A stretch of 64,000 nucleotides of DNA. Origin: Terrimicrobiaceae bacterium (GTDB lineage: Bacteria > Verrucomicrobiota > Verrucomicrobiia > Chthoniobacterales > Terrimicrobiaceae). The notes beneath the pieces are model-generated. The model was not told the origin of the DNA, made no database searches, and saw only the letters and a list, made by a program, of their open reading frames with translations. Numbering within the stretch: the stretch's first letter is position 1; each line of letters begins with the position of its first letter. The DNA lies in contig JBGSPC010000069.1 of assembly GCA_041738805.1 (NCBI GenBank), positions 19,610 to 83,609 of the forward strand. The letters run 5' to 3'. Below, piece by piece: positions 2,323 to 24,654 of the stretch. Position numbers and translations under genes: made by a program.

Positions 2323-2468
2323 AAACGTGACGTCAAATTTTAGAAGCAATCCACCTTAGCCAGATCGGCAGGGTTTCGACAAACCCGAAACCAAAGGCAG
2401 CCGGATGGGGACCATGGTTCGAACTCATAAAGCTATTGGGGTTGTAACCCCATTCGCTCCTCTAACCT

Positions 2469-10256: not shown

Positions 10257-11068
10257 TCACCCGCATAACCACCGGCCTCTCCGCGCTCACTCTGGCCAGC
10301 GCTCTTTGGGTCCTGCCCGCCGCAGCCGCAGAATCAGGTCCGCTCTCCGCAAAAGAAATTGCGAAGCACCTCAGTGCCTTGCAACAGGACGGGTCGTCCT
10401 ATGTCCGCCTCCGTCTCAATGTGGAGGAGCCCCCGGGGACCAAAAAAACCGGTCTTCAGATCCAGATCCAGCAACGACGCACTCCCTCTGCCACCGATGT
10501 GATCTATCAGATTCTGTGGCCAAAAGAACGGATGGGAGAAGCCGTGCTTCTAAAAAAAGCGGGTAACCAAGCTGCGACCGGAACGCATTTTGTTCCACCG
10601 GAAACCGTGAAATCCCTGAGTTCCCAAAATATGCAAGATCCACTCTTCGGGAGTGACCTGGCTTATGCGGATCTGATCGAGAATTTTTATGCGTGGGACT
10701 CACAGACACTCGAGGGCGAGGAAATGATCGGGAAAGTGAACTGCCAGATTCTTGAATCCAAACCGGGCAATGGCCAGAGTTCCATCTACACCAGTGTGCG
10801 CAGCTGGGTGGACACCGACCGGCTTGTTCCGCTCCGTGTGGAAAAATTTCAGGGTTCCGGCAAACCCGTCCGTCGCATTGTGACAACCCTTGTCACCAAG
10901 GAAGATAATGGCCAACACATCCCGGCCAACCTCGACGTTCAGGACCTGCGCAAAAACTCAACCACCGAACTCGAAGGTTCCCGCCTCAACACCAGCGTCA
11001 GTTATGAGGACCAGGATTTCACGGTGGAGGCGTTGAAAGAAATCAAAAAGCCCAAGGTTGCAGAGTAG
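10253..11068 (+). CDS. Secreted LolA-like (outer-membrane lipoprotein-sorting fold) protein, translationally coupled to the PKS
   Basis: The ATGA start/stop overlaps the PKS stop codon (10253-10256). It has an N-terminal signal peptide (MITRITTGLSALTLASALWVLPAAAAES). Its roughly 250-aa soluble domain resembles LolA-like / lipoprotein-sorting family proteins that accompany lipid-type PKS/FAS clusters. This is recognition by similarity only. Confidence 0.45.
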   Translation: MITRITTGLSALTLASALWVLPAAAAESGPLSAKEIAKHLSALQQDGSSYVRLRLNVEEPPGTKKTGLQIQIQQRRTPSATDVIYQILWPKERMGEAVLLKKAGNQAATGTHFVPPETVKSLSSQNMQDPLFGSDLAYADLIENFYAWDSQTLEGEEMIGKVNCQILESKPGNGQSSIYTSVRSWVDTDRLVPLRVEKFQGSGKPVRRIVTTLVTKEDNGQHIPANLDVQDLRKNSTTELEGSRLNTSVSYEDQDFTVEALKEIKKPKVAE

Positions 11069-11254
11069 GCGCCTTTGCAGGAGCAATATTCCGCTCTGTG
11101 TTGACGGATAACTCCTTCTCATCGTTGACGCCGGAAGCATCGACCAAAACAGAGGAGCTCAAGGCGAGTCCGTGCCCATTTTTGGAAGAGGTTGAAAACC
11201 ACGGTCGCTTCGCACAGGATGCGGTTGCGCATACCCGTCGCTCCTCTGCAATCC

Positions 11255-13237
11255 ATGACCCTCTCTCTCAACAAGCCCAAGCTCGACAATCTCGCCTCCG
11301 ACATCTGGAAATCCGCCGAGCGACTCCGTGGAAAGTTCAAGTCCTACGAATACCAGAGCGTCATCCTACCCATCATCGTCATTCGCCGATTGGAGTGTGT
11401 GCTCCTTGATTGGCGGAAGAAAAAATCAATCGAAGTGCTGAAAAAGCGGCCAAAGCTCACTGAGAAGGAACTCGCCAAGCTGGTCAAGGAATTGGAGTTG
11501 AACCCCAAGCAGTGCCCCTTCTCAAACACCACGGACTGGACGCTCCACTCGATCTATGCGGAAGACCACTCGCTACTGGAGGAGAACTTCCGCGCCTATA
11601 TCAATGGGTTCTCGAAGAATGTCGATGACATCATTGAGCACTTCAACTACCGCGCCACCATCGGCCTGATGGTGAAGAACAACCGGTTGGCTCCGATCCT
11701 GAATCAATACAAGGAACTCGCGTTCGGCCCCGACCAGCTCTCCGGGCTGGAGATGGGCTACGTTTACGAGGAATTGCTCCGGCGCTTCTCAGAACAAAGT
11801 GGTGACGAAGCCGGGGAGCACTTCACTCCGCGCGAAGTCGTCCGTCTGATGGTCGAGTTGCTGGATATTCCCATTCCGGACAAGCACCTCTCGATTTACG
11901 ACCCCGCCAGCGGTACGGGCGGCATGTTGTCGGTGACAAAGGAGCACCTGCTGGAGCGTGCCAACAAACCGGAGGAAAAGGCACGGGTGGAGAAATACGT
12001 CACAGTTCACGGGCAGGAGCTTTCCCCCACGAACTACGCGGTTTGTCAGGCCGACCTCCTCATCAAGAACGACCGGCAGGCCACCGTCCACCTCGGCAAC
12101 TCGCTCATCCCTCACGACAAGGATAGCAAAGAGCCAGGTGACCAGTGGCCGGAGCCGAAATGGCGCTTCAACCGGATGCTCAGCAACCCGCCCTTCGGTG
12201 TCACCTGGGGCGGTAAGGATGGCTACGAAAAAGAAGCCCGCAAGCTGGAGAAAACCCGCTACCGGGCCGGGATGCCGCGCGTGAATGATGGCGCGCTGCT
12301 CTTTTTGCAAACCATGCTGGCGAAGATGGCCCCGCCGGAAGAAGGCGGTAGCCGGATCGCCATCATCTTCAATGGCTCGCCCCTCTCGAATGGGGATTGC
12401 GGCTCCGGCGAGAGTGAGATTCGCCGCTGGATTTTGGAAAACGACTGGCTCGACGCCATTGTTATGCTGCCTGACCAGCTCTTCTACAACACCGGGATCT
12501 TCACCTATGTCTGGCTGCTGCGAAACGACAAGCCAGCCAGCCACAAAGGCCGTGTGATGCTCATCGATGCCCGCAAGCAATTTGAGAAAGAGCCGAAATC
12601 CTTTGGCAACAAGCGCCACCGCATCACCGATGCCCACCGCGCATGGATTGAGGAGCGTTACACCAAAGGTTGGGCGAAGGGCTATGCCGACGACCACGTC
12701 AAAATATTCCCGTGCGAGGACTTTGCCTATCACAAAGTCAGCGTCGTCTTCTGGCAGACGGATGAACACGACCAGCCCGCCACCATTACCGAGCCTTACG
12801 AAAGGGCCTTCACTGCCGCGAACGTGAAGAAAGAACAGGACTTCCACGAGAGCGACCTGACTTTCCGCGTGAGGGTGAAGGCCAAGAGCAAGGAGAAGAC
12901 CGTCGAGTTCACCGTCAAGGCAAAGGACAACGCCGCGAAGAAGTTCAAGGAGGCGCTGGCCGATGCTGACGAAACACTCTCCGTCGAATGGACGCACCGT
13001 CACTACGTGCAAGATGACGAATACATCCCGCACGGCGAGGACATCGAGGCGTTCCTAAAACGCGAAATCGCCAAACCGATCATCCGCTGGGCGGACGGCC
13101 CGCAGCTCGGCTACGAAATCCTGCCGAACAAATACTTCTATCGCTACCAACCGCCCACGCCTGCGAAGGACTTGCTGGCCGAGTTCTGGAAGCTGGAGAA
13201 GGACGCGGAGAAGATGCTGGAGGGTCTCGCCAAATGA
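11255..13237 (+). CDS. hsdM: Type I restriction-modification system methyltransferase subunit HsdM (N6-adenine)
   Basis: It has the typical HsdM N-terminus (LDNLASDIWKSAERLRGKFKSYEYQSVILPIIVIRRLECVL) and SAM-binding motif I (DPASGTGGML). The catalytic NPPF motif is present (LSNPPFGVTWGG). The ORF track start at 11192 extends upstream, and the internal ATG at 11255 fits HsdM alignment better. Confidence 0.9.
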   Translation: MTLSLNKPKLDNLASDIWKSAERLRGKFKSYEYQSVILPIIVIRRLECVLLDWRKKKSIEVLKKRPKLTEKELAKLVKELELNPKQCPFSNTTDWTLHSIYAEDHSLLEENFRAYINGFSKNVDDIIEHFNYRATIGLMVKNNRLAPILNQYKELAFGPDQLSGLEMGYVYEELLRRFSEQSGDEAGEHFTPREVVRLMVELLDIPIPDKHLSIYDPASGTGGMLSVTKEHLLERANKPEEKARVEKYVTVHGQELSPTNYAVCQADLLIKNDRQATVHLGNSLIPHDKDSKEPGDQWPEPKWRFNRMLSNPPFGVTWGGKDGYEKEARKLEKTRYRAGMPRVNDGALLFLQTMLAKMAPPEEGGSRIAIIFNGSPLSNGDCGSGESEIRRWILENDWLDAIVMLPDQLFYNTGIFTYVWLLRNDKPASHKGRVMLIDARKQFEKEPKSFGNKRHRITDAHRAWIEERYTKGWAKGYADDHVKIFPCEDFAYHKVSVVFWQTDEHDQPATITEPYERAFTAANVKKEQDFHESDLTFRVRVKAKSKEKTVEFTVKAKDNAAKKFKEALADADETLSVEWTHRHYVQDDEYIPHGEDIEAFLKREIAKPIIRWADGPQLGYEILPNKYFYRYQPPTPAKDLLAEFWKLEKDAEKMLEGLAK

Positions 13238-14361
13238 AAAAGACTACAGATGCCACTCTGGCGATTAGCGCCGACTACCGCCAGTTCATCGAAGAACTGA
13301 AGGCGCGCGTGGTTTCTGCACGCATCTCTGCCGCCCGGGCCATCACTCACGAGGCTATCCTTCTCTACTGGGACATCGGACAAGGGATCGTGGAAAGACA
13401 GCAGTCTCACGGCTGGGGGGATGCTGTCGTCGAAATGGTTGCTGCGGATCTGCGGGAGGCATTTCCAGGGGCAAAAGGCTTCTCTCCACAGAACGTCTGG
13501 CGCATGCAGCAGTTCTATCTCGTTCATAATCAGCAAGAATTTCTCGCACAACTTGTGCGAGAAATGGAGAAGGATGGTAAAAAGGCACCAACTCCTGAAA
13601 ATCTCTCACAGGTTGTGAGAGAAATGGTTTCGCTCGTTCCGTGGGGACACCATGTCAATGCCCTCACCCGAGTTACCGACCCTGCCGCCCGGCTCTGGTA
13701 TCTCCGTGCCACCGCCCGCTTCGGTTGGTCGCGCAATGTGCTGCTCAATCAGATCAAGGCCGGGGCCTACGAACGTGCCGTGACGGAGAAGAAGACGCAT
13801 AACTTCGATCTCGCCCTGCCGGAACACTTCGCGGAGCAGGCGGACGAGATGCTCAAGAGTTCCTACAACCTCGAATTTCTCGGCATCCGCCGCGCTGTGC
13901 GTGAACGCGAACTCGAAGACCGGCTCATCTCCCGCCTGCAAGCATTTCTTCTCGAACTGGGCTATGGCTTCTGCTTCGTCGGACGGCAGCACCGCATCGC
14001 ACTGGGCAGGAAAGAGTATTTTATCGATCTGCTCTTTTATCACCGCTTCCTCAAGGCCCTCGTCGCCTTCGATCTCAAGGTCGGCCCTTTCGAGCCGGAA
14101 TTCGCGGGCAAGATGGATTTTTACCTGAATCTCCTCAACGACAAGGAACGCGGCCCCGACGACCAGCCTTCCATCGGCATCATCCTCTGCGCGGAAAAGG
14201 ATGACGTGGAGGTCGAGTATGCCCTGCGCTCAAAGGCCAATCCCATTGGCGTCGCCGCTTACGAATTGCAGTCGAAACTGCCAGGCGAGTTGAAGGGCAA
14301 ACTGCCGACGGCAAAACAGCTAGCGGATATGGTGCGGGGGGAAATGGAGGGGGGGAAATGA
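13234..14361 (+). CDS. YhcG-like DUF1016 / PD-(D/E)xK nuclease-family protein embedded between hsdM and hsdS
   Basis: It overlaps the hsdM stop by 4 nt (ATGA). The N-terminal domain (ISAARAITHEAILLYWDIGQGIVERQQ...WGDAVVEMVAADLREAFPGAKGFSPQNVWRMQQFY) is characteristic of the YhcG/DUF1016 family. The C-terminal region carries a PD-(D/E)xK-like core (FIDLLFYHRFLKALVAFDLKVG). This family is commonly found inside type I RM loci. Confidence 0.75.
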   Translation: MKKTTDATLAISADYRQFIEELKARVVSARISAARAITHEAILLYWDIGQGIVERQQSHGWGDAVVEMVAADLREAFPGAKGFSPQNVWRMQQFYLVHNQQEFLAQLVREMEKDGKKAPTPENLSQVVREMVSLVPWGHHVNALTRVTDPAARLWYLRATARFGWSRNVLLNQIKAGAYERAVTEKKTHNFDLALPEHFAEQADEMLKSSYNLEFLGIRRAVRERELEDRLISRLQAFLLELGYGFCFVGRQHRIALGRKEYFIDLLFYHRFLKALVAFDLKVGPFEPEFAGKMDFYLNLLNDKERGPDDQPSIGIILCAEKDDVEVEYALRSKANPIGVAAYELQSKLPGELKGKLPTAKQLADMVRGEMEGGK

Positions 14362-15686
14362 ACGACACCCTCGCAGCACAATCGCTGTGGCCTGTTGCCC
14401 GGATCAAAGATCATGTATCGAAGATCGGGAGCGGTGTCACGCCATCCGGCGGCGCTGCGTCGTATCTCGATGCCGGTGTTCCTTTGTTGCGAAGTCAGAA
14501 CGTGCATTTTGATGGATTGCGGCTTGATGACGTAGCGTTCATCGCTGCCGAAACTCATGATGAGATGAGCGGCACTAAATTAAAGGCGCGTGATGTGCTG
14601 CTGAACATTACTGGAGCTTCCATCGGTCGTTGCGCTTTTGTGCCCGACAGTTTTGGCGAAGGGAACGTCAACCAGCATGTGTGCATCATTCGCCCGACGG
14701 CGAGACTTGATCACAGGTTCCTGACCTACTGCCTGTCTGCTCATTGGGGACAGGACCAAGTCTTTTCCAGTTTCACCGGAGCTTCGCGGCAGGGCTTGGG
14801 CCAGCGCGATCTCGGCGCGATTCAAGTGCCGCTTCCCCCGCTGCCACAGCAACAGCGCATCGCGGCGTATCTGGACGCAAGTTGCGCGGCGATTGACGCG
14901 GCGGTAGCCGCCAAACGCCGCCAACTCGAAACCCTGAATGATCTTCGCTCTTCAATCATCTGCCGCGCTGTCACACACGGGTTGAACCCTAAAGTGGCAT
15001 TGAAATCTTCCGGGATGGACTGGAGCCCAGAGGTTCCCGCCCACTGGCAAGTCCGGCAGATCAAACGCCTGTGCAGTTTAGTTCGCGGCCAGTTTACTCA
15101 TAGGCCAAGAAACGACCCGGCCCTCTACGACGGCCCGTATCCATTTATCCAGACCGGCGACATCACAGCCGCAGGGAAATATATCCGCACCCATTCCCAG
15201 ACGCTCAACGAGCTCGGGTTGAGCGCGAGCAAGCAATTTCCCCGTGGCACTCTCGTCATGTCCATCGCAGCCAACATCGGGGACGTAGCCATCCTCGATT
15301 TTGAAGCCTGTTTCCCGGACAGCATGATTGGGATGATTCCCGGCCACAAAACCAATCTCGATTTCCTTTATTACCTCATGCGCTCCATGCGGGGCATCAT
15401 GCTGCGTTCTGCTGTTCAGAGCACGCAGCTCAATCTGAACTACGTCCGCATCGGGACGAACTTCGCGCCTGTCCCCCCGCTGACGGAGCAAAAGGCCATT
15501 GCGGAATACCTCGATGCGAAAGAGCATGAATCGCAGTTGATTTGCACCACCATCCAATCCCAAATCGCCACCCTCACCGCCTACCGCAAATCGCTAATCC
15601 ACGAATGCGTCACCGGCCAGCGGCGGGTTACGGAAGCGGACGTGCGTGCAATTCGGGAGAAAATCCCTACAATGGCCAAAGCATAA
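14358..15686 (+). CDS. hsdS: Type I restriction-modification specificity subunit HsdS (two target recognition domains)
   Basis: It overlaps the upstream stop by 4 nt. Two variable TRD halves are each followed by the conserved HsdS spacer motif (LPPLPQQQRIAAYLDASCAAIDAAV and PPLTEQKAIAEYLDAKEHESQ). Confidence 0.85.
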   Translation: MNDTLAAQSLWPVARIKDHVSKIGSGVTPSGGAASYLDAGVPLLRSQNVHFDGLRLDDVAFIAAETHDEMSGTKLKARDVLLNITGASIGRCAFVPDSFGEGNVNQHVCIIRPTARLDHRFLTYCLSAHWGQDQVFSSFTGASRQGLGQRDLGAIQVPLPPLPQQQRIAAYLDASCAAIDAAVAAKRRQLETLNDLRSSIICRAVTHGLNPKVALKSSGMDWSPEVPAHWQVRQIKRLCSLVRGQFTHRPRNDPALYDGPYPFIQTGDITAAGKYIRTHSQTLNELGLSASKQFPRGTLVMSIAANIGDVAILDFEACFPDSMIGMIPGHKTNLDFLYYLMRSMRGIMLRSAVQSTQLNLNYVRIGTNFAPVPPLTEQKAIAEYLDAKEHESQLICTTIQSQIATLTAYRKSLIHECVTGQRRVTEADVRAIREKIPTMAKA

Positions 15687-15695
15687 GGCTGAACC

Positions 15696-16805
15696 ATGCC
15701 CGAATTGGATTACATCACTGTCAAAGGATTCAAGAGTATCGCTTCCATCGATAAGTTGAAGCTCGGGGCAATCAACGTCGTCATTGGTCCGAATGGTTCG
15801 GGAAAATCGAACTTCATTGGAGTGTTTTCCTTCCTGCACGCCATCCGTGAGGGGCATCTTCAGGAATATGTTCTCAAAGCTGGAGGTGCAGAAAAGGTGC
15901 TTCATTTTGGATCGAAAGCCACAAAGAACATCCATTTGCATATCTCGTTCCGTGACGGCGTGAATCAGTATGAATTGGATTTGACGCCAACAGCCGGGGA
16001 TGAACTGGTTCCCGTCGCTGAGTGGGTCTATTTTTGGAACAAGGCCCAATATCCTGATGGTCCTACAGGTCGGGGGGTCAACCGCATTGGCAAAGAAGCA
16101 GGGATCAGCGCTCCCAAAGGCCAGCCAATTGCCGCCTACGTTCGCAATCATTTGGATAGCTGGCGGCTATACCATGTCCATGACACAAGCAGCAGTTCGC
16201 CCATGAAAAAGACGGCGGATGTGAACGACAACCGTTATCTGCGCCCCGATGGATCCAACATTGCTCCCTTTCTTTATTATCTGCGAGAAAAGCATGAGAC
16301 CGCCTACAGCCTGATTCGTCGTACGGTTCAGCGAGTTGCCCCATTTTTTGATGATTTCCAGTTGGAGCCGCAAAAACTCAATCCGGACAAAATTCTGTTG
16401 GAGTGGAAACACAAGGGCTCGGATGCGTATTTCGATGCCTCGTCGCTGTCGGACGGCTCCTTGCGGTTTATTGTTTTGGCGACACTTTTCCTCCAGCCCG
16501 AGTCCTATCGTCCCTCGGTCATCCTTGTGGATGAGCCCGAGCTCGGACTGCATCCCTATGCAATCACGATGCTGGCCTCTCTTGTGAAGCAGGCCTCCAC
16601 AAAGACGCAGGTCATCATTTCCACCCAATCCCCGCTGTTACTTGATCACTTTCAACCCGAGGATGTGCTGGTGGCGGATCGTGTGGGCGGCGGCACTCAG
16701 TTCACCCGACTGGAACCTGGCAAACTGAGCGGCTGGCTGGAGGACTACAGCTTGGGCCAACTCTGGGAGAAGAACGAGTTTGGGGGAAGGCCAACCCCGG
16801 AATAG
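15696..16805 (+). CDS. ABC/OLD-type AAA ATPase (AAA_15/AAA_21-like), first gene of a two-gene ATPase+TOPRIM module
   Basis: Walker A is at the N-terminus (VVIGPNGSGKSNFIGV), right after a KGFKSI..L start typical of OLD/RecF/SMC-like ATPases. A signature-like motif (SSLSDGSLRF) and Walker B / D-loop (ILVDEPELGLHP) follow, then a late His-loop region (VIISTQSP). It begins 9 nt after the hsdS stop. Confidence 0.8.
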   Translation: MPELDYITVKGFKSIASIDKLKLGAINVVIGPNGSGKSNFIGVFSFLHAIREGHLQEYVLKAGGAEKVLHFGSKATKNIHLHISFRDGVNQYELDLTPTAGDELVPVAEWVYFWNKAQYPDGPTGRGVNRIGKEAGISAPKGQPIAAYVRNHLDSWRLYHVHDTSSSSPMKKTADVNDNRYLRPDGSNIAPFLYYLREKHETAYSLIRRTVQRVAPFFDDFQLEPQKLNPDKILLEWKHKGSDAYFDASSLSDGSLRFIVLATLFLQPESYRPSVILVDEPELGLHPYAITMLASLVKQASTKTQVIISTQSPLLLDHFQPEDVLVADRVGGGTQFTRLEPGKLSGWLEDYSLGQLWEKNEFGGRPTPE

Positions 16806-16810
16806 GACCC

Positions 16811-17503
16811 ATGGCGCGCCTGTTCATCCATGTCGAAGGAGAGACGGAGGAAACGTTTGTGAACGTGGTGCTGGCCCCGCATCTTTACAGGCTTGGCTAT
16901 CAGAAAGTGAGTGCCCGCCTCCTAGGCAATTCGCGTAATCGGGATCGAAGGGGAGGGATTCGGAGTTGGGCTTCCGTTCGGGCAGACATCATCAACCACT
17001 TGAAGGAAGACCGCGAGTGCCTTGCCACAACCATGGTGGATTACTACGCATTGCCCAGAGAGGGACATGCAGCCTGGCCCGGACGCTTGGAAGCAGCATC
17101 CAGACCATTCCCCGAAAAGGCAACCCAGGTTCAGGCCGCATTGCTGGCGGATATTGCTGCCGAACTCGGTGACGAATTCAATCCTCGTCGATTCGTCCCC
17201 TACGTGATGATGCATGAATTTGAGGGATTGCTCTTCAGCGACTGCCAGCGATTTGCTGATGGAATCGGACGTCCGGAGCTGGCGACCAAATTTCAAGCGA
17301 TCCGGGATGCCTTTTCCTCCCCGGAGGAAATCAATGACAGCCCGATTACCGCGCCTTCCAAGCGTGTGGAGGCGCTCGTAGCCGGATATCAAAAGCCGCT
17401 GCTCGGTGCTCTGGCCGTGCTGGAAATTGGCTTGGACAAGATCGTGCAGGAGTGCCCGCATTTTCGGGCATGGGTGGAACAACTCGAAAACTGGGTGAGG
17501 TAA
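16811..17503 (+). CDS. DUF4276-like protein with TOPRIM-type N-terminal motif; partner of the upstream ATPase (candidate split OLD-family nuclease)
   Basis: This 230-aa protein begins 5 nt after the ATPase stop. Its N-terminus (LFIHVEGETEETFV) matches the TOPRIM conserved-glutamate strand seen in OLD-family, AriB and DUF4276 proteins. Its size and position fit the AAA_21+DUF4276 gene pairs found inside type I RM loci. The family assignment is from memory and was not computed. Confidence 0.55.
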   Translation: MARLFIHVEGETEETFVNVVLAPHLYRLGYQKVSARLLGNSRNRDRRGGIRSWASVRADIINHLKEDRECLATTMVDYYALPREGHAAWPGRLEAASRPFPEKATQVQAALLADIAAELGDEFNPRRFVPYVMMHEFEGLLFSDCQRFADGIGRPELATKFQAIRDAFSSPEEINDSPITAPSKRVEALVAGYQKPLLGALAVLEIGLDKIVQECPHFRAWVEQLENWVR

Positions 17504-20433
17504 TGGCTAGAAAGAAAAAAGCCCCGGAGCTGACGTTTCAGCAGCACATCGCGGATTACCTCATCCGCGAGCACGAGTATGGCAAGTTGGAGCAGGCCGA
17601 CATCACGGATACCGAGCACTTCATCGCCGAAGACCAGCTCTGGGCCTTCCTCAAAGCCACACAGGCCGACGCGCTGAAAAAGCTTACGGACGATTACGGC
17701 ACGGACGCAGGCGAGGAAGTCTTCAAGGCTCTGCGCAAGGAACTGGAACACACGCCGCTGTGGATGTTGTTCCGTCAGGGCTTGCCAGTACGCGGGTTGG
17801 AGTTCCGTCTTTTTTATCCCAAGCCGCGTTCCGCCGCGAGTGTCGCAGCCGCCAAATACACCGAGAACCGCATCACGTTCCGCCCGCATTTCATCTTCGG
17901 CGACGTAAACCATGAGATTGATTTCGTTTTCTATCTAAACGGTCTGCCCATCGTTGCTCTGGAACTGAAGCACGAAGCCAACCAGAACGTGCATGATGCG
18001 GTGTCGCAATTCACGAAACGAGACCACACCCACAAGATTTTCCAGCATCCGTTCCTCTACCTCGCCGCCGACACCAGCGACGCGATGGCCGCCACCGACC
18101 CGCGCAAGGAGGAGAACTTCCGCTGGCACAACATGGGGCTAAAGAATGAGCAAATCACGCCCAACCAGAATGAGTGTCCGGTTGAGTTCCTTTACCGAGA
18201 AGTGCTGTCGCAGGACCAGTTGTTGGAGGCGTTGTCATTCTTCCTTGTGCGCGTGCCCGAGCGTGAAGCCGAGGACGACAAACCCGCGCGCCCGGCGTCC
18301 ACAATCTTCCCGCGTTATCATCAGAGCCGTCTCGTGAGGAAGGTTGCAGAGGACATCACCGCCCACTTCACTGAGGCGGGTGACATCGGCAAAAAGTATC
18401 TGGCCGACCATTCGGCCGGCAGTGGCAAGACGCTCTCGATCTGCTGGCTGGCCGACCGTCTGCACAGCCTCTTCAAGCCCGGCACGAATGAGAAGCTGGT
18501 CGATATCTCGTTCATCCTCACCGACCGCAAATCCCTCGATACAAACATCCGCGAGGACATCGACAAATTCAGTCACCTTACGAACGTGGTGGGCATCGCA
18601 AAGCATTCATCCGATCTGCTGCGTTTCCTTCAGCAGCGAAAATCCATCATCGTCACAACACAGCAGAAGCTGGCCTATCTGCTTGAGGAACTGCAAAAGA
18701 ATTCGGAGCTGAAAAAGCTGCGCGTGGCCTTCCTGATTGATGAAGCCCATCGGTCGCAGGAAGGCCAGATGGGCGCAGCCATCCGGCTGCCATTCCGCAA
18801 AGAAGGCGAGCCAGACGAAGAAGATGCACCCGAGGAGGATCTCGAAGAGCAGATTGCCAAGGTCATTCGTGAGCATGACCTTAATCAGTTATTCGTCGCC
18901 TTCACGGCGACACCGTCCCCGGCCACGGTATCAATGTTTGGCAAGCCCTTTGACAGCTACACCGAGGCGGAGGCCATCGCGGAGGGCTACATCGTCGATG
19001 TGGCGGCGAGCATCATTTCCTACAAGACGCTCTACAACCTGCATTGCCCTATCGTTCCGCTGCCGCACGAAGAGAAGCTCTACCCCAGGGGTGTTGTGTC
19101 CAAGGCGCTCCAGAATGTGGCGTTTCAGGATGATGGCCTGATCCAATACAAGGCCGAGGTTATGCTCCGTCTTTTCGAAAAGGACGTGAAGCCTCTCATC
19201 GGCGGACGCGCCAAGGCAATGATTGTCACGTCTTCGCGCGTGGCCGGGCTGCGGTATTTCAACATCATCAAAGAGAAACTCAAAGAACGCGGTGCCGACT
19301 ACAAGGTGCTGTATGCGTTCTCGGATTTTGTCCACCCGGAGACGAACGCCGCCATCAGCGAATACGCTGTGAATGAATTGCAGGATGGCGAGTTGATCGA
19401 AAACCGATTTGAGGGCGATGACTACCGGATCATGGTCGTGGCGAACAAATTTCAGACCGGCTTCGACCAACCCTTGCTCGCGGGTATGTTCCTCGACAAG
19501 CCAGTGCTGGATCGCAACGCGGTGCAGACGGTCTCGCGCCTGAATCGGTGCCACCATGGGAAGAAAGACGTGGTCGTCGTGGACTTCACCAACAATGCCA
19601 AACAAATCCTCAAGGCCTTTGCGAAGTATCGGAAAGGCACGCCGTTCGAGCCTGAGGAGCCGGACGAGGGAACCTGCCTGAAACTGCACGCAGAAATTCT
19701 CGCTGCTGGGGTCTTCACCCAGAAGGACGCTGCCAATATGCTTGCGCTTCTCAGGAGCGGGACGGATGCGCAGGTGCAATTCCAAGTGAATGCCCTGCGG
19801 ACTCGCTTTCATGCGAAGTTCACCGACTGGCAAAACCGCAAGGCGTTCGTCTATTTGCTGGCCCGCTTCGTGAAGAGTTACCATTTCCTCACATGCTTCT
19901 TCACCTACCCGGCGGCGATTCAGGATTTTGCCATCTTCGCAGAGTGGGTCGGCCCGCAGCTTATCAAAGCCGGAACCGTCTCGGACCTGATGAAGCAGAT
20001 CCGCGCCACCGTGGTCACCAAGGCCGCGGTTCAATATCAAGGAGTGATGACCAGCGGCGGCCCGGTGAAGCTCCAGCCGGGGAAAGGCAAAGGCGGTGCA
20101 GGCCCGGTGCCAGTGAAGACCACCGTCCAGGACATGATCGCCGACATTCAAACGAAGTTTCAGATCACGGACGAAGAAGCCCTCTACATCAAACAGGTGA
20201 CCGAAGAAAAGATCGCCGATCCGGGTATCCGCACCACCGTCCACGCACACCGGAGCAACCACATTTACCTCGAAGGTCCGTATCGCGGACAGGTTAACGG
20301 TGACATTCAAACAACCTACGATGCTCGCGGCCGCTACGATGAACTCGCCGACCCGAAATACACTGATACCGGCGGCATCTTTGACATTATGGCTGTGACT
20401 GTCATCCAAACACATCTGGCGCTCGCTGCCTGA
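17504..20433 (+). CDS. hsdR: Type I restriction enzyme endonuclease subunit HsdR
   Basis: The start is at MARKKKAPELTFQQHIADYL, immediately after the TAA of the previous gene, with a GGTGAGG RBS. An N-terminal PD-(D/E)xK nuclease motif is present (IDFVFYLNGLPIVALELKHE). Helicase motif I is GSGKT (HSAGSGKTLSI) and the DEAH box is FLIDEAHRSQ. The downstream helicase C-terminal region includes QTVSRLNR. Confidence 0.9.
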
Positions 20434-20437
20434 AGCC

Positions 20438-21100
20438 ATGAGCAAGACCATTCACGACATTCCTGAGGCCGACCGACCGCGGGAGAAACTCCTGCGCAAA
20501 GGCGCTGCGGCTCTGAGCGACCAGGAATTGCTCGCTGTGCTCCTCGGCAAAGGCACCACAAAAATTGACGTAATGACACTGGCACGGAACGTCAGCACGG
20601 TCGCAGACAAGAAAGGCTTGGAACTAACGGTTGATGACCTTGTGGGCCTCGAAGGGATGGGCAATAGCAAGGCTATGATTCTCATCGCCGCCATCGAGTT
20701 CGCCCGCCGCCGCATCAAACCGGAGGGAGCGAAGATCGTGACCCCTGCCGACCTGCTCCCACACATACGTCACTACGCTGACCGCAAGCAGGAGCATTTC
20801 CTCTGCGCCAGCATCAATGGTGCGAACGAGATTTTGAACATCCGGGTAGTTTCCATCGGGTTGATCGACCGCAGCCCCGTGCATCCCCGTGAAGTCTTCG
20901 CTGATGCTCTGGCAGATCGCGCTTCCGCTGTCATCGTGGCTCACAACCACCCGAGTGGTGGCCTCACTCCTTCGCCCAACGATTTGGACATGACTTCGCA
21001 GCTCAAATCAGCAGGCCTGATCGTTGGCATCGAGTTGCTTGATCATATAATCTTTAACAGGACCGATTATTTTAGCTTTTTGGAGGAAGGGAGTTTTTAG
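20438..21100 (+). CDS. RadC-like JAB/MPN+ domain protein
   Basis: It has the RadC N-terminus (PREKLLRKGAAALSDQELLAVLLGKG). The JAMM motif is VAHNHPSGGLTPSPNDLDMT (HxHx7Sx2D). It lies 5 nt downstream of the hsdR stop. Confidence 0.85.
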   Translation: MSKTIHDIPEADRPREKLLRKGAAALSDQELLAVLLGKGTTKIDVMTLARNVSTVADKKGLELTVDDLVGLEGMGNSKAMILIAAIEFARRRIKPEGAKIVTPADLLPHIRHYADRKQEHFLCASINGANEILNIRVVSIGLIDRSPVHPREVFADALADRASAVIVAHNHPSGGLTPSPNDLDMTSQLKSAGLIVGIELLDHIIFNRTDYFSFLEEGSF

Positions 21101-21225
21101 TTTCAATCAATTCCTCGCGAGAGGCAAGGAAGAGGACGAGATGTCACAAGCTACGTCGGGTTTTGCTGCGCGAGGCTCCCTGAGGTTGTTTACGGCAACC
21201 GGGCCCCACAGCCATTTTTTCCGCA

Positions 21226-22350
21226 TCATCCGGCTTTCTCAAAAACCTCAACGTCGTAAACATTGCCGGAAAAGCGCGTTCCGATCGGCGTGAATCCCGA
21301 GGTGGCTGCCAGCGTCTGCAAGTTTTCGGGTTTGCGATAGCGGAAACGTTTGCCGAAAATCTCCAGGATTCTTGTCGCGGCGGAATCGCGATGGGTGTTC
21401 ACAATCAGGTGACCACCCGGAGCGGTTTCTTTTGCCACGGCGTGCATGAGATCTTCCGCGTTTGGCTTTCCGGTTGGAGAGCCTTCCCCGAGCCGCTCCT
21501 CCGTGGTGGTGTAAGTGTGACCCGTGAAATATTCCAAAATCCCGACCGCTGTCACCACATGATACGGTTCCTCCTGCTCTGCGCCCGGCGAAGGCTGGAA
21601 GATATCTTCCGCCTGCGCAAACAAACCAAAGGATGCATTCCCCGTGCGATCAATCAGGTCCCGCAGGCGGGGAAGTTTCTCAATGAGCTGGATGGTTTTT
21701 TTGCAGTGCGCAAGATCCCGGTCCGAAATGACGGCACGGATCAATTTGGGGTCATGTCCGTCGCGCAGCAACCGATCACAAGCCACGATCACACTCAAGC
21801 CTGTTCCGGCGGCAAAAGCTTTGATGCGAACGGGCTCTCCACGTTTCAACCGCCGGGATGCGAGTTCGTGCGTGAGACGGGTTTCCCATCCAAAGCGAAC
21901 CTGCACATCGCGGCTGGGGACAGAATCCAGCAAAAGACGGTCCCACAGGCCGGCGCTTCGATGGACCTCAGGGGAAAGCAACATGTAGATGGCGTTCATG
22001 GGGTCACCGCCCTCCACAAGAAAAGCTGTTTCACCCCTCGAGGGTTGCAGGAGGGTCATCGTGTAAGGATGTCCGGTGCGTTCAAGAATGCGGTTACGAT
22101 ACGCCACCACTTTTCTCCCGTCCGGCGCTGTGCGAACCTCCTCCCGCGTGGTTTTTTGCATCAACCAAAACACAAAGCCGGTCATGGCCCGCCGCAGACC
22201 GGTCAGCGGCTTGCGCTCCGGCCCTTCAAAAATCTGCCAGCTCAGTCCATCAATCAGCTCGCGGGAAGCCTCCTCCTTGCCCTCCCCGTAAAGCACCGCC
22301 ATGGCCTGCATAGGGGACAGCCCGGCGACTTTCGTGCGCCCGCCAGTCAT
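21226..22350 (-). CDS. Class I SAM-dependent methyltransferase with an N-terminal extension domain
   Basis: Rossmann motif I-like AFAAGTGLSVIVACDRLL is followed by an acidic post-I residue pattern (VISDRD). I chose the start at internal MTGGRTKVAG (22350) so that it abuts the upstream gene's stop at 22347. The ORF track start at 22467 would overlap that gene. Confidence 0.55.
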   Translation of the reverse strand: MTGGRTKVAGLSPMQAMAVLYGEGKEEASRELIDGLSWQIFEGPERKPLTGLRRAMTGFVFWLMQKTTREEVRTAPDGRKVVAYRNRILERTGHPYTMTLLQPSRGETAFLVEGGDPMNAIYMLLSPEVHRSAGLWDRLLLDSVPSRDVQVRFGWETRLTHELASRRLKRGEPVRIKAFAAGTGLSVIVACDRLLRDGHDPKLIRAVISDRDLAHCKKTIQLIEKLPRLRDLIDRTGNASFGLFAQAEDIFQPSPGAEQEEPYHVVTAVGILEYFTGHTYTTTEERLGEGSPTGKPNAEDLMHAVAKETAPGGHLIVNTHRDSAATRILEIFGKRFRYRKPENLQTLAATSGFTPIGTRFSGNVYDVEVFEKAG

Positions 22351-23987
22351 CGGAGATGTTCGTTCAGGATCCGCTTGATTTCGACCATTCCCAGCGGGTG
22401 CAAATGGCTCCAGTGGCCGCTTGGAATCACTTGCTCGCTTCTGGCTCCCGCCACATGACTGCTCCAATAAGGAACGATGCCATCGTTGCTGTAGGGCTTC
22501 GTGCGATCGAGATGACCGCCACGGCCACGATCACCAATCAGGGAGTGAAATGGAACGCCGGCTTTGAGGGGGATGGCATTAGCGGTTATCAGGAACCGGT
22601 TTTCAGGATCAAGCATATCAATGCTGTTTGGAAGGCGGTGCCGACCACCCACCCGAACCTCCGGCCTCACAAAGGAATACACCTCCTTGTTGACCTTGCT
22701 CTGGGAAATGGGGTTACCCACAAGGGTGGCACCAAGACGTCCCATGAAACCGGTGGCCATATCGCTGCCCCGATGGGAAGCGGACAAAAAGACCACCCGG
22801 GAGACATTTTTCTGGGATCCAAAAATTAGAGACCGGCTCATGACATTCCTTGCTTCGTTTGAAAACGGGATTTGGTCGGGTGACCGGTCAAAAAAAGTAT
22901 TCCAGATTTTCATGCCACTGTCGGTCATGAGCAGCCGGCTGATCATTCCGCCCATGCTGTGCCCGATCAAAACGATATCTTTGTGGTCGGGGTGAAGTTT
23001 TCTCATCTTATCAAGCTGATATCTCAAAATCGCGGCGGACATGGGATACGGAAGCCCCGTGGGATAACCGAAAACCCAGAACTGATAGTTTCGCCGGATC
23101 TTTGGATCGCTCCGAAGAAACTCAATCACCGGCGAGAAAATCGCAGGGGAATTGCTCAGACCGTGCACAAACAGAACCGGAATTTTTCTGGGATTGTAGG
23201 GTTCAAGCGGCACAAGCTTTGCGGAGTTTTCGAAGAGATCAGGACGGAACATCTCCCGGAGTTCGAAGCGCCTCACGTTGAACCCGGCCAGTGACATGGC
23301 CAGCGGCGCCTGCACGTCGGCCGCGAGGGTGTAGGTATGATTGTCGAGTTTTAGAGTTTCCTGCTCCAGGGGATCGGAGAACATCAGATCGCATTTCCGG
23401 CCGGAAAACCGCACCGATGCGGTGAGCCCATAAAAGAGGTTCTCGGACCATGCGGCGTTGGCGGTTCGTGTGGGTTCCGGCCTTTTGACGTTGGCCACCA
23501 CCGGTGCTCCCAACCCGGTCATGGCAGCCCTTTCACCCACAAGTTTGCCACGGAACGTCAGTCGGTCTGTGGAGGCAAATTCCAGTTTCGAGGGGTGGAA
23601 TTGCGGGCGGGGGTCCGGAGGGATAAGCCCGAGTTTCCATGGTTCTCCGGTCGCGGAAGGACAAATCAGCCGCTCTTCCCAAGGGGTCAGGCCCTTGTTG
23701 GAAACAATCTCAACCACCCTGGCGACCGCAAAATTGTAATCACTTTGGGCAAGAACGTCTTTGGGATCGGAGGCCAGACGGAGCCGTGCCGCATTCGCCG
23801 CATCCAGATAGCCACCAATTTGTGCCAAAGGATCGTCTGGAAGCTTCTCCATGGATTTGACCACCACCCTTTGTTGCTCCGTGGTTGCCAGGGTGGCAGT
23901 CCGGCGATGCTCCTGCACGCGGGCGTATTGGGCGCAACCGGTGAGAAGAGACACGAGGGCAAGCAGTGAGGGTATACTGATTTTCAT
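22347..23987 (-). CDS. Lipoprotein alpha/beta-hydrolase (lipase/esterase-type, GHSMGG nucleophile elbow)
   Basis: Lipoprotein signal with lipobox (SLLALVSLLTGCA). The C-terminal hydrolase domain has VLFVHGLSNSP (oxyanion region) and LIGHSMGGMISRLL (GxSxG). Confidence 0.6.
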   Translation of the reverse strand: MKISIPSLLALVSLLTGCAQYARVQEHRRTATLATTEQQRVVVKSMEKLPDDPLAQIGGYLDAANAARLRLASDPKDVLAQSDYNFAVARVVEIVSNKGLTPWEERLICPSATGEPWKLGLIPPDPRPQFHPSKLEFASTDRLTFRGKLVGERAAMTGLGAPVVANVKRPEPTRTANAAWSENLFYGLTASVRFSGRKCDLMFSDPLEQETLKLDNHTYTLAADVQAPLAMSLAGFNVRRFELREMFRPDLFENSAKLVPLEPYNPRKIPVLFVHGLSNSPAIFSPVIEFLRSDPKIRRNYQFWVFGYPTGLPYPMSAAILRYQLDKMRKLHPDHKDIVLIGHSMGGMISRLLMTDSGMKIWNTFFDRSPDQIPFSNEARNVMSRSLIFGSQKNVSRVVFLSASHRGSDMATGFMGRLGATLVGNPISQSKVNKEVYSFVRPEVRVGGRHRLPNSIDMLDPENRFLITANAIPLKAGVPFHSLIGDRGRGGHLDRTKPYSNDGIVPYWSSHVAGARSEQVIPSGHWSHLHPLGMVEIKRILNEHLR

Positions 23988-24014
23988 GAAGGTGATTCGA
24001 CGGTCCTGGGGTGG

Positions 24015-24602
24015 TTATCGGGTTTTATCTTTGCCCAGAAGACCAGTCTTTATCGAGGATTGCAGAGGTTTGCCAATCCAAAGACGCAGAAGCGCATGAT
24101 AAAAATCCCGGCCGGGAATCGCGGCTTGCCTCTCACCATCCACCATAACCACGGTCCCCTCCGATGGAAGGTAGTCAATGGTGATTTCTGACCCCTTGTT
24201 GAGGTCCGCGCCATTCTGAAACGCTTTAAAAAAAACTTCGAGCTCCTCTGCAAAAACGCCCTGCTCCAACGCCGTGAGATTTTTGTCCAGATTATCCCGC
24301 ACGGCAGAGGCAAACTTCTCTTCTGGCACGGATCGAAGCATGATGATCTTGAGGCGCTTCGGCCCATGGTTGTGGTCCATAATTCCGGCCTCGTCATCGG
24401 TTGCATGACTCACATACAGGCCGGCATCATACACCCCGATCCCGAAGACGCTCCGTGTTGCCGTTCCATTGAGAACAAGCGCCAGCCCACCCAGATCAAT
24501 GGGCTCGGGAAACCCGTCTTTGGGACCGCCGAAGGCTGCGCTTATCATGCTCAGGGCGACCAATGCAAAACATCCGGGGAGAGAAAAATTAAAACGCATC
24601 AT
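24015..24602 (-). CDS. Secreted chalcone-isomerase-fold (CHI-like / fatty-acid-binding-protein-like) protein
   Basis: Signal peptide (MMRFNFSLPGCFALVALSMISAAFG). The core LALVLNGTATRSVFGIGVYDAGLYV matches the conserved CHI-like strand (L.G.G.R...KVYA.GLY). I took the start at the internal MM at 24602 rather than the ORF track start at 24686. Confidence 0.55.
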   Translation of the reverse strand: MMRFNFSLPGCFALVALSMISAAFGGPKDGFPEPIDLGGLALVLNGTATRSVFGIGVYDAGLYVSHATDDEAGIMDHNHGPKRLKIIMLRSVPEEKFASAVRDNLDKNLTALEQGVFAEELEVFFKAFQNGADLNKGSEITIDYLPSEGTVVMVDGERQAAIPGRDFYHALLRLWIGKPLQSSIKTGLLGKDKTR

Positions 24603-24654
24603 TGGCAAATATCGGTCAGTTCCAGGCGTAAATCCATGGGTAATACAGCTTAGA

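What the first reader, a model, noticed from the sequence alone, without database searches (positions are those of the whole stretch)
11192..21100. Seven-gene co-directional type I RM operon with three embedded accessory modules (composite defense island)
hsdM, hsdS and hsdR are separated by a YhcG/DUF1016 PD-(D/E)xK protein (between M and S), an ABC/OLD-type ATPase + DUF4276/TOPRIM pair (between S and R), and a RadC/JAB gene after R. All gaps are 10 nt or less, or overlapping (ATGA at 13234 and 14358; TAATG at 17501-17506). The whole block is therefore probably one transcript. Nested immune modules inside an RM operon suggest layered or co-regulated defense. It is not a plain hsdRMS.
Basis: partly seen in the sequence, partly recalled or inferred. 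Interest (0 to 1): 0.6.

Follow-up and report, generated by a model that had tools for sequence, protein, structure and literature searches.

The report
Mobile restriction cassette carrying extra defence genes
This is a 10-kb horizontally acquired type I restriction-modification operon with two catalogued candidate defence modules nested inside it, which is a documented pattern; the one less expected feature is a RadC gene that travels with this restriction family as a conserved fourth gene.

Summary
Seven intact, co-directional, tightly packed genes occupy 11255-21100: hsdM, YhcG/DUF1016, hsdS, ABC ATPase, DUF4276, hsdR and RadC.

Relatives of the host have PKS-LolA directly abutting the downstream genes, so 11069-21225 is an insertion.

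Comparison with 80 loci from many phyla gave these points:
- The backbone of this mobile type I RM family is hsdM-hsdS-hsdR-radC.
- RadC follows hsdR in 37 of 47 assessable loci and co-diverges with M and R. It is a terminal backbone gene, not an embedded accessory.
- Only two modules are cargo, and they sit in two slots.
- The M|S slot holds YhcG (PADLOC PDC-S02).
- The S|R slot holds ATPase+DUF4276 (PADLOC HEC-01, with an OLD/PARIS-like TOPRIM fold). In other loci the S|R slot holds AbiL, AbiE, Bro-N, a second YhcG type or toxin-like genes.
- The two cargo modules assort independently, and HEC-01 also occurs alone.

Embedding of defence genes in type I RM, HEC-01 and PDC-S02 are all published, so the finding is an ordinary new member of a known kind. 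The RadC linkage was not found in the literature searched and is the only part worth following up. Whether the modules cooperate functionally is untested.

The parts
10253..11068 (+). Host flank: LolA-like gene that follows the 2595-aa PKS. It is the last host gene before the insertion.
   Evidence: Pfam LolA_like. In relatives L086, L087, L090 and L092 it is followed within about 45 nt by the convergent homologue of 21226-22467.
11069..11254 (+). 5' non-coding end of the inserted segment (186 nt). It may contain the promoter.
   Evidence: It is absent from empty sites and has no homology to the other cassettes, whose homology starts at 11249-11255. No promoter-like or terminator-like site was found here. 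No Rfam hit.
11255..13237 (+). hsdM: type I methyltransferase subunit, 660 aa, long form.
   Evidence: HsdM_N + N6_Mtase. PADLOC MTase_I PDLC03029 scores 579 bits over the full length. Motifs DPAxGTGG and NPPF are conserved in 78 sequences. It is 65-90% identical in 80 loci from many phyla.
13234..14361 (+). Cargo in the M|S slot: YhcG/DUF1016 PD-(D/E)xK protein (PADLOC candidate PDC-S02).
   Evidence: DUF1016_N + YhcG_C. PDC-S02 scores 424 bits. ATGA overlaps on both sides. D265 and K282 are invariant among 45 homologues. It is present full-length in 14 of 58 complete loci, with remnants in 3. dN/dS is about 0.11.
14358..15686 (+). hsdS: specificity subunit with two variable target-recognition domains.
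   Evidence: Two Methylase_S stretches. Only the central block (about 14829-14975) and the C-terminal block (about 15551-15645) are conserved at DNA level across loci.
15696..16805 (+). Cargo in the S|R slot, gene 1: ABC-type ATPase (PADLOC HEC-01A).
   Evidence: AAA_21/SMC_N/AAA_15. HEC-01A scores 465 bits over the full length. Walker A GPNGSGKS, signature LSDG and Walker B LVDEPE are conserved.
16811..17503 (+). Cargo in the S|R slot, gene 2: DUF4276 TOPRIM-like protein (PADLOC HEC-01B).
17503..20433 (+). hsdR: restriction/translocase subunit, 976 aa.
   Evidence: HSDR_N, ResIII/SWI2_SNF2 and T1R_D3-like. Conserved D..ExK nuclease motif, GSGKT, DEAH and QTxSRxNR. The nearest solved structure is EcoR124I HsdR. 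DNA homology to other loci begins at 17503.
20438..21100 (+). radC: full-length RadC (HhH + JAB). It is a conserved terminal backbone gene of this RM family.
   Evidence: UPF0758_N + RadC. NCBIfam PRK00024 scores 190 bits against a cut-off of 180. The JAMM motif E..HNHPxG..PSxxD is invariant in 35 sequences. It follows hsdR in 37/47 loci. Co-divergence with M and R has rho 0.75-0.77. Reciprocal look-ups are all hsdR-linked.
21101..21225 (+). 3' non-coding end of the inserted segment (125 nt).
   Evidence: Homology to other cassettes stops at 21079-21102. It is absent from empty sites.
21226..22467 (-). Host flank: convergent 413-aa gene of unknown family. It is the first host gene after the insertion.
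   Evidence: No Pfam hit. Its homologue lies directly after LolA in relatives without the cassette.

Best explanation
Window 11069-21225 is a 10.16-kb horizontally acquired insertion between two convergent host genes.

It carries one member of a very mobile type I restriction-modification family. The conserved backbone of that family is hsdM-hsdS-hsdR-radC. The family has two positions where foreign genes accumulate: between M and S, and between S and R. In this copy both slots are filled.

How the parts most likely work:
- The RM core methylates its recognition sequence (M2S) and cuts unmethylated DNA after ATP-driven translocation (R2M2S). This rests on established knowledge of type I RM.
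- The S|R slot holds an autonomous two-gene ABC-ATPase + TOPRIM module (HEC-01). By analogy with OLD, Gabija, PARIS, AbiL and MADS3-4, the ATPase most likely acts as the infection sensor and the DUF4276 TOPRIM protein as a nuclease effector. This is inferred.
- The M|S slot holds a YhcG PD-(D/E)xK nuclease-like protein of unknown substrate (PDC-S02).

All seven genes are probably co-transcribed and in part translationally coupled. The cargo modules appear to be independent passengers that share expression and horizontal transfer with the RM carrier, rather than obligate partners of it.

RadC, a DNA-binding HhH + JAB metalloenzyme, is co-inherited with hsdR. It probably serves the RM system itself, but its role is unknown.
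For: - Domains and candidate-system HMMs.
- Intact motifs and purifying selection.
- Junctions.
- Empty site in relatives L086, L087, L090 and L092.
- Composition: tetranucleotide distance 0.200 against 0.12+-0.017 for 44 same-size segments. GC3 is 0.78 for hsdM and 0.73 for hsdR, against 0.56-0.63 in the flanks.
- Mobility of the family: HsdM is 65-90% identical in 80 loci across bacterial phyla and some archaeal MAGs. Homology is confined to hsdM start through radC stop.
- Slot model: 58 loci have a complete M..R interval. Of these, 14 have only hsdS (no cargo), 14 have YhcG in M|S, 6 have HEC-01 in S|R, 5 have a second YhcG type in S|R, and others have AbiL, AbiE, Bro-N/PDC-S13, zeta-like or PIN genes.
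- Independence of the cargo: only 1 locus has both modules, against about 1.5 expected. HEC-01A distances do not track HsdM (rho -0.12). Synonymous divergence is higher for HEC-01 (pS about 0.8) than for M/R (about 0.65). HEC-01 occurs stand-alone in L099 and L100.
- TOPRIM fold of DUF4276; also PMC12065111.
- RadC as backbone.
- Literature for embedding, HEC-01 and PDC-S02: bioRxiv 10.1101/2024.01.29.577857, PMC12881386, PMC11464382.
Against: - No transcript data, so the operon status is inferred.
- No promoter was identified in 11069-11254.
- No integrase, tRNA, terminal repeats, or close plasmid or viral relatives were found, so the vehicle of transfer is unknown.
- YhcG co-diverges moderately with HsdM (rho 0.57) and is coupled by ATGA overlaps on both sides. 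It may therefore be more than a passenger.
- PDC-S02 was not among the four of eight systems reported as protective in the one test found.
- The ten loci that lack RadC show that the RM can exist without it.
- Many related loci are metagenome bins, so some taxonomic labels may be wrong.
Confidence: 0.72

Rival explanations
1. Integrated guard system. The ATPase+TOPRIM pair, and perhaps YhcG, physically monitors the RM complex, as PrrC does in EcoprrI. It fires when a phage anti-restriction protein (an Ocr-, ArdA- or Stp-like factor) inactivates restriction. The operon would then be a true two-layer system.
For: - The pair sits in the same slot (between hsdS and hsdR) as prrC in the prr locus. 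The PrrC precedent and the idea of an Ocr-triggered embedded ABC-ATPase system are discussed.
- PARIS, a structural relative, is triggered by the anti-restriction protein Ocr (PMC11464382).
- Coupling to hsdR is tight (TAATG overlap).
Against: - Close HEC-01 homologues (70-76% identical) function-lessly or otherwise exist with no RM nearby (L099, L100).
- HEC-01 was first defined inside Hma systems, not RM.
- It does not co-diverge with the backbone.
- The slot holds many unrelated alternatives.
- A cold-seep HEC-01 cloned on its own was reported to protect E. coli.
Confidence: 0.18
2. YhcG is an auxiliary subunit of this RM family rather than cargo. It could be a second nuclease or a DNA-binding factor made in stoichiometry with M and S.
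For: - ATGA overlaps on both sides.
- 66-85% identity and moderate co-divergence with M and R (rho 0.57-0.61).
- dN/dS of 0.11.
- It is by far the commonest occupant of the M|S slot.
- One database protein reads as an HsdM-C-terminus::YhcG fusion (P0182).
- DUF1016 association with type I RM has been noted since 2012 (PMC3424549).
Against: - It is absent from 41 of 58 complete loci.
- It is truncated or split in L005, L006, L011, L024 and L096 while the RM genes stay intact.
- In five loci it is bracketed by duplicated hsdM 3' ends, as expected for an insertable and excisable cassette.
- A different YhcG type sits in the other slot in five loci.
- The P0182 fusion looks like a frameshift.
Confidence: 0.15
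3. RadC is an incidental neighbour: a housekeeping gene or a hitchhiker with no role in the RM system.
For: - It is an ordinary full-length RadC by NCBIfam.
- Ten loci have the RM without it, and nothing replaces it.
- Distant relatives on plasmids lack it.
Against: - It lies inside the inserted segment.
- It follows hsdR at 0-21 nt in 37/47 loci in unrelated genomic contexts.
- It co-diverges with M and R.
- Its active-site motif is invariant and dN/dS is 0.07.
- All RadC-side look-ups returned hsdR immediately upstream, even in an IS66-decayed cassette.
Confidence: 0.07

Closest known systems
Defence genes embedded in type I RM / BREX / DISARM / Hma operons ('guilt-by-embedding', Payne et al., bioRxiv 10.1101/2024.01.29.577857)
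   Same: Co-oriented extra genes nested between hsdM, hsdS and hsdR. Both nested modules here match that study's candidate families (HEC-01, PDC-S02) at full length.
   Different: This locus fills two slots at once. It also belongs to an RM family with a conserved RadC gene after hsdR, which that paper does not mention.
HEC-01 (Hma-embedded candidate 01: ABC ATPase + TOPRIM-like DUF4276)
   Same: Both proteins hit the HEC-01A and HEC-01B models (465 and 241 bits) and are adjacent on the same strand. The TOPRIM fold was confirmed here.
   Different: It is embedded in a type I RM rather than in Hma. Published activity is inconsistent: no defence, protection against at least one of T4/T5/T7.
PARIS (AriA ABC ATPase + AriB DUF4435 TOPRIM), OLD/Gabija, AbiL (AbiLi + RloB) and MADS Mad3-Mad4
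   Different: The partner is DUF4276, not DUF4435, RloB or Toprim_Old. MADS equivalog scores are far below their cut-offs. Trigger and substrate are unknown.
PrrC anticodon nuclease in the EcoprrI (hsdM-hsdS-prrC-hsdR) locus
   Same: An ABC-ATPase-type module in the slot between hsdS and hsdR of a type I RM operon. PrrC is the textbook case of a nested back-up defence.
   Different: PrrC is a single polypeptide with an anticodon-nuclease domain and is held silent by the RM complex. Here there are two proteins with a TOPRIM effector, and there is evidence of autonomy.
PDC-S02 / YhcG (DUF1016) PD-(D/E)xK proteins
   Same: The same two-domain architecture and HMM family. Association with type I RM genes was already noted (PMC3424549; PMC9881135).
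   Different: Nothing distinctive. Function is still unknown, and it was not among the protective candidates in the one published test found.
RadC/YicR family (HhH + JAB)
   Same: Full-length architecture, intact JAMM-type motif and an NCBIfam equivalog score above the cut-off.
   Different: Known contexts are housekeeping or competence loci and conjugative elements, where it is fused or adjacent to ArdC, primases or helicases (PMC3239186, PMC5512222). Here it is the conserved last gene of a mobile type I RM operon.

Membership tests
Type I restriction-modification system | HsdM with HsdM_N + N6_Mtase domains and SAM/catalytic motifs (motif I, NPPF) | tested here: met
   (183 and 60 bits). DPAxGTGG and NPPFG conserved in 78 sequences.
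Type I restriction-modification system | HsdS with two target-recognition domains separated by conserved regions | tested here: met
   two Methylase_S stretches; only the central and C-terminal blocks are conserved across loci.
Type I restriction-modification system | HsdR with an N-terminal PD-(D/E)xK nuclease and SF2 DEAD/DEAH translocase motifs | tested here: met
   D..ExK, GSGKT, DEAH and QTxSRxNR are all conserved.
Type I restriction-modification system | NCBIfam hsdM/hsdR models (TIGR00497, TIGR00348) reach their curated cut-offs | tested here: not met
   93 bits against 242.75, and 194 bits against 284.55. This is a divergent subfamily of type I; the domain-level criteria are met.
Type I restriction-modification system | Sequence-specific methylation and ATP-dependent restriction | not testable with these tools
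   Needs methylome sequencing and phage or plasmid restriction assays.
HEC-01 (PADLOC candidate) | Adjacent, co-oriented HEC-01A (ABC ATPase) and HEC-01B (DUF4276) genes, each matching its model | tested here: met
   465 bits (positions 5-362 of 363) and 241 bits (12-226 of 230). The gap is 5 nt.
HEC-01 (PADLOC candidate) | TOPRIM-like fold with conserved acidic residues in the B protein | tested here: met
HEC-01 (PADLOC candidate) | Anti-phage activity | not testable with these tools
   Published results conflict: none detected; protection against at least one of T4/T5/T7 for another homologue.
PARIS (AriA/AriB) | Effector is an AriB-type DUF4435 TOPRIM protein | tested here: not met
MADS (methylation-associated defence system) | MAD2, MAD3 and MAD5 equivalog models reach their cut-offs | tested here: not met
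   66 against 720, 104 against 420 and 33 against 400 bits.
PDC-S02 / YhcG-DUF1016 | DUF1016_N + YhcG_C architecture, PDC-S02 model match, PD-(D/E)xK residues | tested here: met
   (201, 126 and 424 bits). D265 and K282 are invariant, and position 280 is D or E.
PDC-S02 / YhcG-DUF1016 | Restriction-endonuclease-like fold of the C-terminal domain | tested here: inconclusive
   The AlphaFold model has pLDDT below 50 over residues 165-349. No solved homologue by sequence.
RadC family (PRK00024) | HhH-type N-terminal domain + JAB domain with metal-binding motif; equivalog cut-off reached | tested here: met
   190 bits against 180. E..HNHPxG..PSxxD invariant; matches 2qlc.
PrrC-type guard of a type I RM | Single ABC-ATPase polypeptide with a C-terminal anticodon-nuclease domain, found almost only inside type I RM | tested here: not met
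   Two separate proteins with a TOPRIM partner. Close homologues occur outside RM.

The most novel reading that the evidence does not exclude
RadC is a dedicated fourth component of a type I RM family that moves between distant phyla. It could be a self-encoded factor that tames or assists HsdR. Two candidate roles are restriction alleviation while a naive host chromosome is still unmethylated, and processing of DNA ends or stalled complexes. Either would make the cassette independent of host factors such as ClpXP and could help explain its cross-phylum spread. This would also give RadC, a widespread protein with no established function, a testable role.
Probability: 0.3. Interest if true: 0.6.

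Novelty: new member of a known kind. Interest (0 to 1): 0.3.

Why it matters
For the finding as written, it matters little. Nested defence genes in type I RM operons are documented, and both nested modules are already in PADLOC.

Two things have some value:
- This RM family is a clean natural example of a 'carrier with two cargo slots'. The same backbone is seen with at least eight different inserts, and in some loci with duplicated hsdM 3' ends bracketing the insert. That could be used to study how embedding arises.
- The hsdR-radC linkage is strong and reciprocal in the sample examined, and it was absent from the literature searched. It offers a concrete genetic context in which to test what RadC does.

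Tried and rejected
- Mobility signatures: no tRNA in the window. No meaningful direct or inverted repeats at the ends of the insert. No integrase or transposase in the block. No close HsdM (>=60% identical) on PLSDB plasmids or in IMG/VR viral contigs. The transfer vehicle stays unknown.
- Promoter/terminator scan: counts do not differ from shuffles and nothing was found in the 186-nt leader.
- Rfam: nothing in 10000-22500.
- YhcG structure: the model is too poor in the nuclease domain, so no fold search was run. No solved homologue by sequence.
- Source organism: the exact-protein look-ups returned only a 2.5-kb Logan contig or nothing, and no names. The host taxon was not determined.
- MADS membership was considered because of mad2/3/5 hits. 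It was rejected because the scores fall far below the cut-offs.
- PARIS membership was rejected because the effector family is wrong.
- Long antisense ORFs (18931-20451 and 11789-13033, minus strand) have no family hits and lie opposite high-GC3 genes, so they were treated as artefacts.
- Replacement of RadC by another gene in the ten loci that lack it: none found.
- The original MADS paper was not in the searchable library.

Full report
**Observation**

The + strand of 11.2-21.1 kb carries seven consecutive ORFs.
- hsdM: HsdM_N + N6_Mtase.
- YhcG/DUF1016 protein: DUF1016_N + YhcG_C.
- hsdS: two Methylase_S stretches.
- ABC-type ATPase: AAA_21, SMC_N, AAA_15.
- DUF4276 protein.
- hsdR: HSDR_N, ResIII/SWI2_SNF2, T1R_D3-like.
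- Full-length RadC: UPF0758_N + RadC JAB. NCBIfam PRK00024 scores 190 bits against a cut-off of 180.

The junctions are as described. There are ATGA overlaps at 13234 and 14358, gaps of 9 and 5 nt, a TAATG overlap at 17501-17505, and a 4-nt gap before radC.

Two start codons need correcting. hsdM starts at ATG 11255, not TTG 11192. hsdR starts at ATG 17503. Homology to related loci begins exactly at these positions.

All seven proteins keep their catalytic or nucleotide-binding motifs, and these are conserved among relatives. Against relatives, dN/dS is about 0.07-0.11 for M, YhcG, R and RadC. For the ATPase/DUF4276 pair, dN is small while synonymous sites are saturated.

**It is an insertion**

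Metagenome contigs were retrieved with the LolA-like protein (74-84% identical). In L086, L087, L090 and L092 they show PKS-LolA followed within about 45 nt by the convergent homologues of window genes 21226-22467, 22347-23987 and 24015-24686. So 11069-21225 (10.16 kb) is an insert between two convergent host genes.

GC content does not differ (0.562 against 0.561). The tetranucleotide profile of the insert is further from the rest of the window than any of 44 same-size control segments (0.200 against 0.12+-0.017, maximum 0.155). GC3 is 0.78 for hsdM and 0.73 for hsdR, against 0.56-0.63 in the flanking genes.

There is no tRNA, integrase or terminal repeat. No close relative is on sequenced plasmids or viral contigs. 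The vehicle of transfer is unknown.

**What the family looks like**

A scan of one genome per species found 586 stretches encoding relatives of HsdM. The best 80 (65-90% identical) come from Planctomycetota, Verrucomicrobiota, Acidobacteriota, Proteobacteria, Firmicutes, Chloroflexi, Nitrospirota and a few archaeal bins. Bin labels should be read with caution.

DNA similarity to the window (65-90%) begins at the hsdM start codon and ends at the radC stop codon. There is nothing shared outside those limits.

Within hsdS only the central and C-terminal conserved regions match. That is expected for specificity subunits with exchangeable recognition domains.

**RadC is backbone, not accessory**

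- RadC follows hsdR at 0-21 nt in 37 of the 47 loci that have at least 700 nt of sequence after hsdR.
- Pairwise identities of RadC track those of HsdM and HsdR (Spearman 0.75 and 0.77; M against R is 0.92).
- Its E..HNHPxG..PSxxD motif is invariant in 35 sequences.
- From the RadC side, three close homologues chosen only for long contigs (P0288, P0289, P0341) all lie 4 nt after hsdR in each of the seven places returned. One of these is a cassette whose hsdM/hsdS region is broken by IS66 elements.
- In the ten loci without RadC nothing replaces it.
- Distant relatives on plasmids (HsdM about 36% identical) lack it.
- No paper describing RadC as a partner of type I RM was found. It is not mentioned in the embedding study.
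- Published views of RadC are a DNA-associated JAB enzyme of unknown function, seen in housekeeping or competence loci and in conjugative elements (PMC3239186, PMC5512222).

**Two cargo slots**

Among the 58 loci with a complete hsdM..hsdR interval:
- 14 have only hsdS between M and R.
- 14 have a full YhcG (49-85% identical) between M and S, and 3 have YhcG remnants.
- 6 have the ATPase+DUF4276 pair between S and R.
- 5 have a second YhcG type (about 30% identical, also PDC-S02) between S and R.

Others carry the following in the S|R slot:
- AbiL (AbiLi + RloB; L037, L043, L045).
- AbiEii (L020).
- Bro-N/PDC-S13 (L003, L028, L038, L061).
- Zeta-toxin-like genes (L076, L078, L081).
- PIN genes (L067, L071).
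- HTH genes.

Only one of these 58 loci (L013) has both YhcG and the pair, against about 1.5 expected if independent. The full seven-gene order also occurs in L094/L095. In L096/L097 it occurs with yhcG split in two, in different genomic surroundings.

Distances for the ATPase do not follow HsdM (rho -0.12, few pairs). Synonymous divergence is higher for the pair (pS about 0.8) than for M/R (about 0.65). This indicates independent acquisition.

Homologues of the pair at 70-76% identity occur with no RM nearby. One lies between glycerol-metabolism genes (L100) and one beside TIR genes (L099).

In five loci the YhcG gene is bracketed by a second copy of the last 60-110 nt of hsdM. That is the footprint expected if the gene enters or leaves by recombination at the hsdM 3' end.

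**The modules themselves**

The ATPase/DUF4276 pair matches PADLOC HEC-01A and HEC-01B at full length (465 and 241 bits). An AlphaFold model of the DUF4276 protein (pLDDT 90) is most similar to:

This agrees with published assignments. The PARIS paper groups AbiL and MADS3-4 with the ABC-ATPase + TOPRIM systems.

The pair is not a PARIS member, because the effector family is wrong. It is not MADS, because equivalog scores are far below the cut-offs.

Published tests of HEC-01 disagree. No defence was seen in Payne et al.. Protection against at least one of T4/T5/T7 was reported for a cold-seep homologue.

YhcG matches PDC-S02 (424 bits). Its link to type I RM genes has been noted since 2012. 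In the one test found, it was not among the four of eight candidates reported as protective. Its structure prediction failed for the nuclease domain.

**How it most likely works**

- Shown: an intact, horizontally acquired type I RM operon of a mobile family, with two independently acquired candidate defence modules nested in it and a co-inherited RadC gene at its end.
- Established for the families: M2S methylates, and R2M2S translocates and cuts unmodified DNA.
- Inferred:
  - All seven genes are one transcript.
  - The ATPase senses infection and licenses the TOPRIM protein as a nuclease.
  - The cargo modules act on their own and gain shared expression and shared horizontal transfer from the RM carrier.
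  - RadC serves the RM system.
- A PrrC-like guard relationship remains possible but is not favoured, because of the stand-alone occurrences and the lack of co-divergence.

**Verdict**

The finding is real and well described. It is an instance of a published pattern built from catalogued parts: a new member of a known kind, of low-to-moderate interest. The RadC-hsdR linkage is the one element that deserves a follow-up.

Noticed in passing
L023 4473-4563; L027 3125-3220; L033 13123-13197; L060 9351-9461; L073 3318-3379: In five related loci the last 60-110 nt of hsdM are present a second time, just after the YhcG gene. YhcG is therefore bracketed by direct repeats of the hsdM 3' end. This suggests gain or loss of the cargo by recombination there. 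The window copy has no such duplicate.
   Followed up: partly
protein P0182 (645 aa, JGI contig of 4.3 kb): A database protein reads as the C-terminal part of HsdM fused in frame to a full YhcG. The junction peptide looks like a frameshifted hsdM end, so it may be a sequencing or assembly error rather than a true fusion.
   Followed up: partly
L082 3572-4096 and L083 3427-3951: At the same LolA|413-aa-gene intergenic site where the window has the RM cassette, two relatives have a different insert of about 520 nt. By eye it seems to encode a small cysteine-rich protein on the minus strand. The site appears to be variable.
   Followed up: no
L108/L109 1333-7082: This is a decayed copy of the cassette. 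Two IS66 transposases interrupt the hsdM/hsdS region and YhcG is shortened. hsdR and radC remain intact and adjacent.
   Followed up: no
L030, L052, L071: HsdM is 67-82% identical to the window in bins labelled Methanoperedens, Methanobacterium and Promethearchaeota. This is either very recent inter-domain transfer or mis-binned contigs.
   Followed up: no
L020 9201-9270: A 70-nt copy of the hsdR 5' end (93% identical to window 17514-17583) lies upstream of hsdM in a locus that carries AbiE in the S|R slot. It may be a scar of a rearrangement.
   Followed up: no
window 18931-20451 (-) and 11789-13033 (-): Long antisense ORFs of 506 and 414 aa lie opposite hsdR and hsdM. They have no family hits and are most likely by-products of the high GC3 of those genes.
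   Followed up: yes
window 2469-11068 and 21226-24686: A 2595-aa PKS, a LolA-like gene and the convergent genes (413-aa unknown, alpha/beta hydrolase, chalcone-isomerase-like) keep the same order in relatives. They may form one lipid or polyketide gene cluster that the cassette has split.
   Followed up: no
L098 14410-15339: In one related locus the gene right after radC encodes a DUF8426 protein with weak NucS_C/YhcG_C-like hits. This is another PD-(D/E)xK-type nuclease next to the cassette.
   Followed up: no
L101 (pALVIN02) 2050-9803 and L102 8986-16229: Distant plasmid-borne relatives (HsdM about 36% identical) show the same M-slot-S-slot-R layout, with VapBC pairs in both slots or a DUF5655 gene. 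The two-slot habit therefore extends well beyond the close family.
   Followed up: partly
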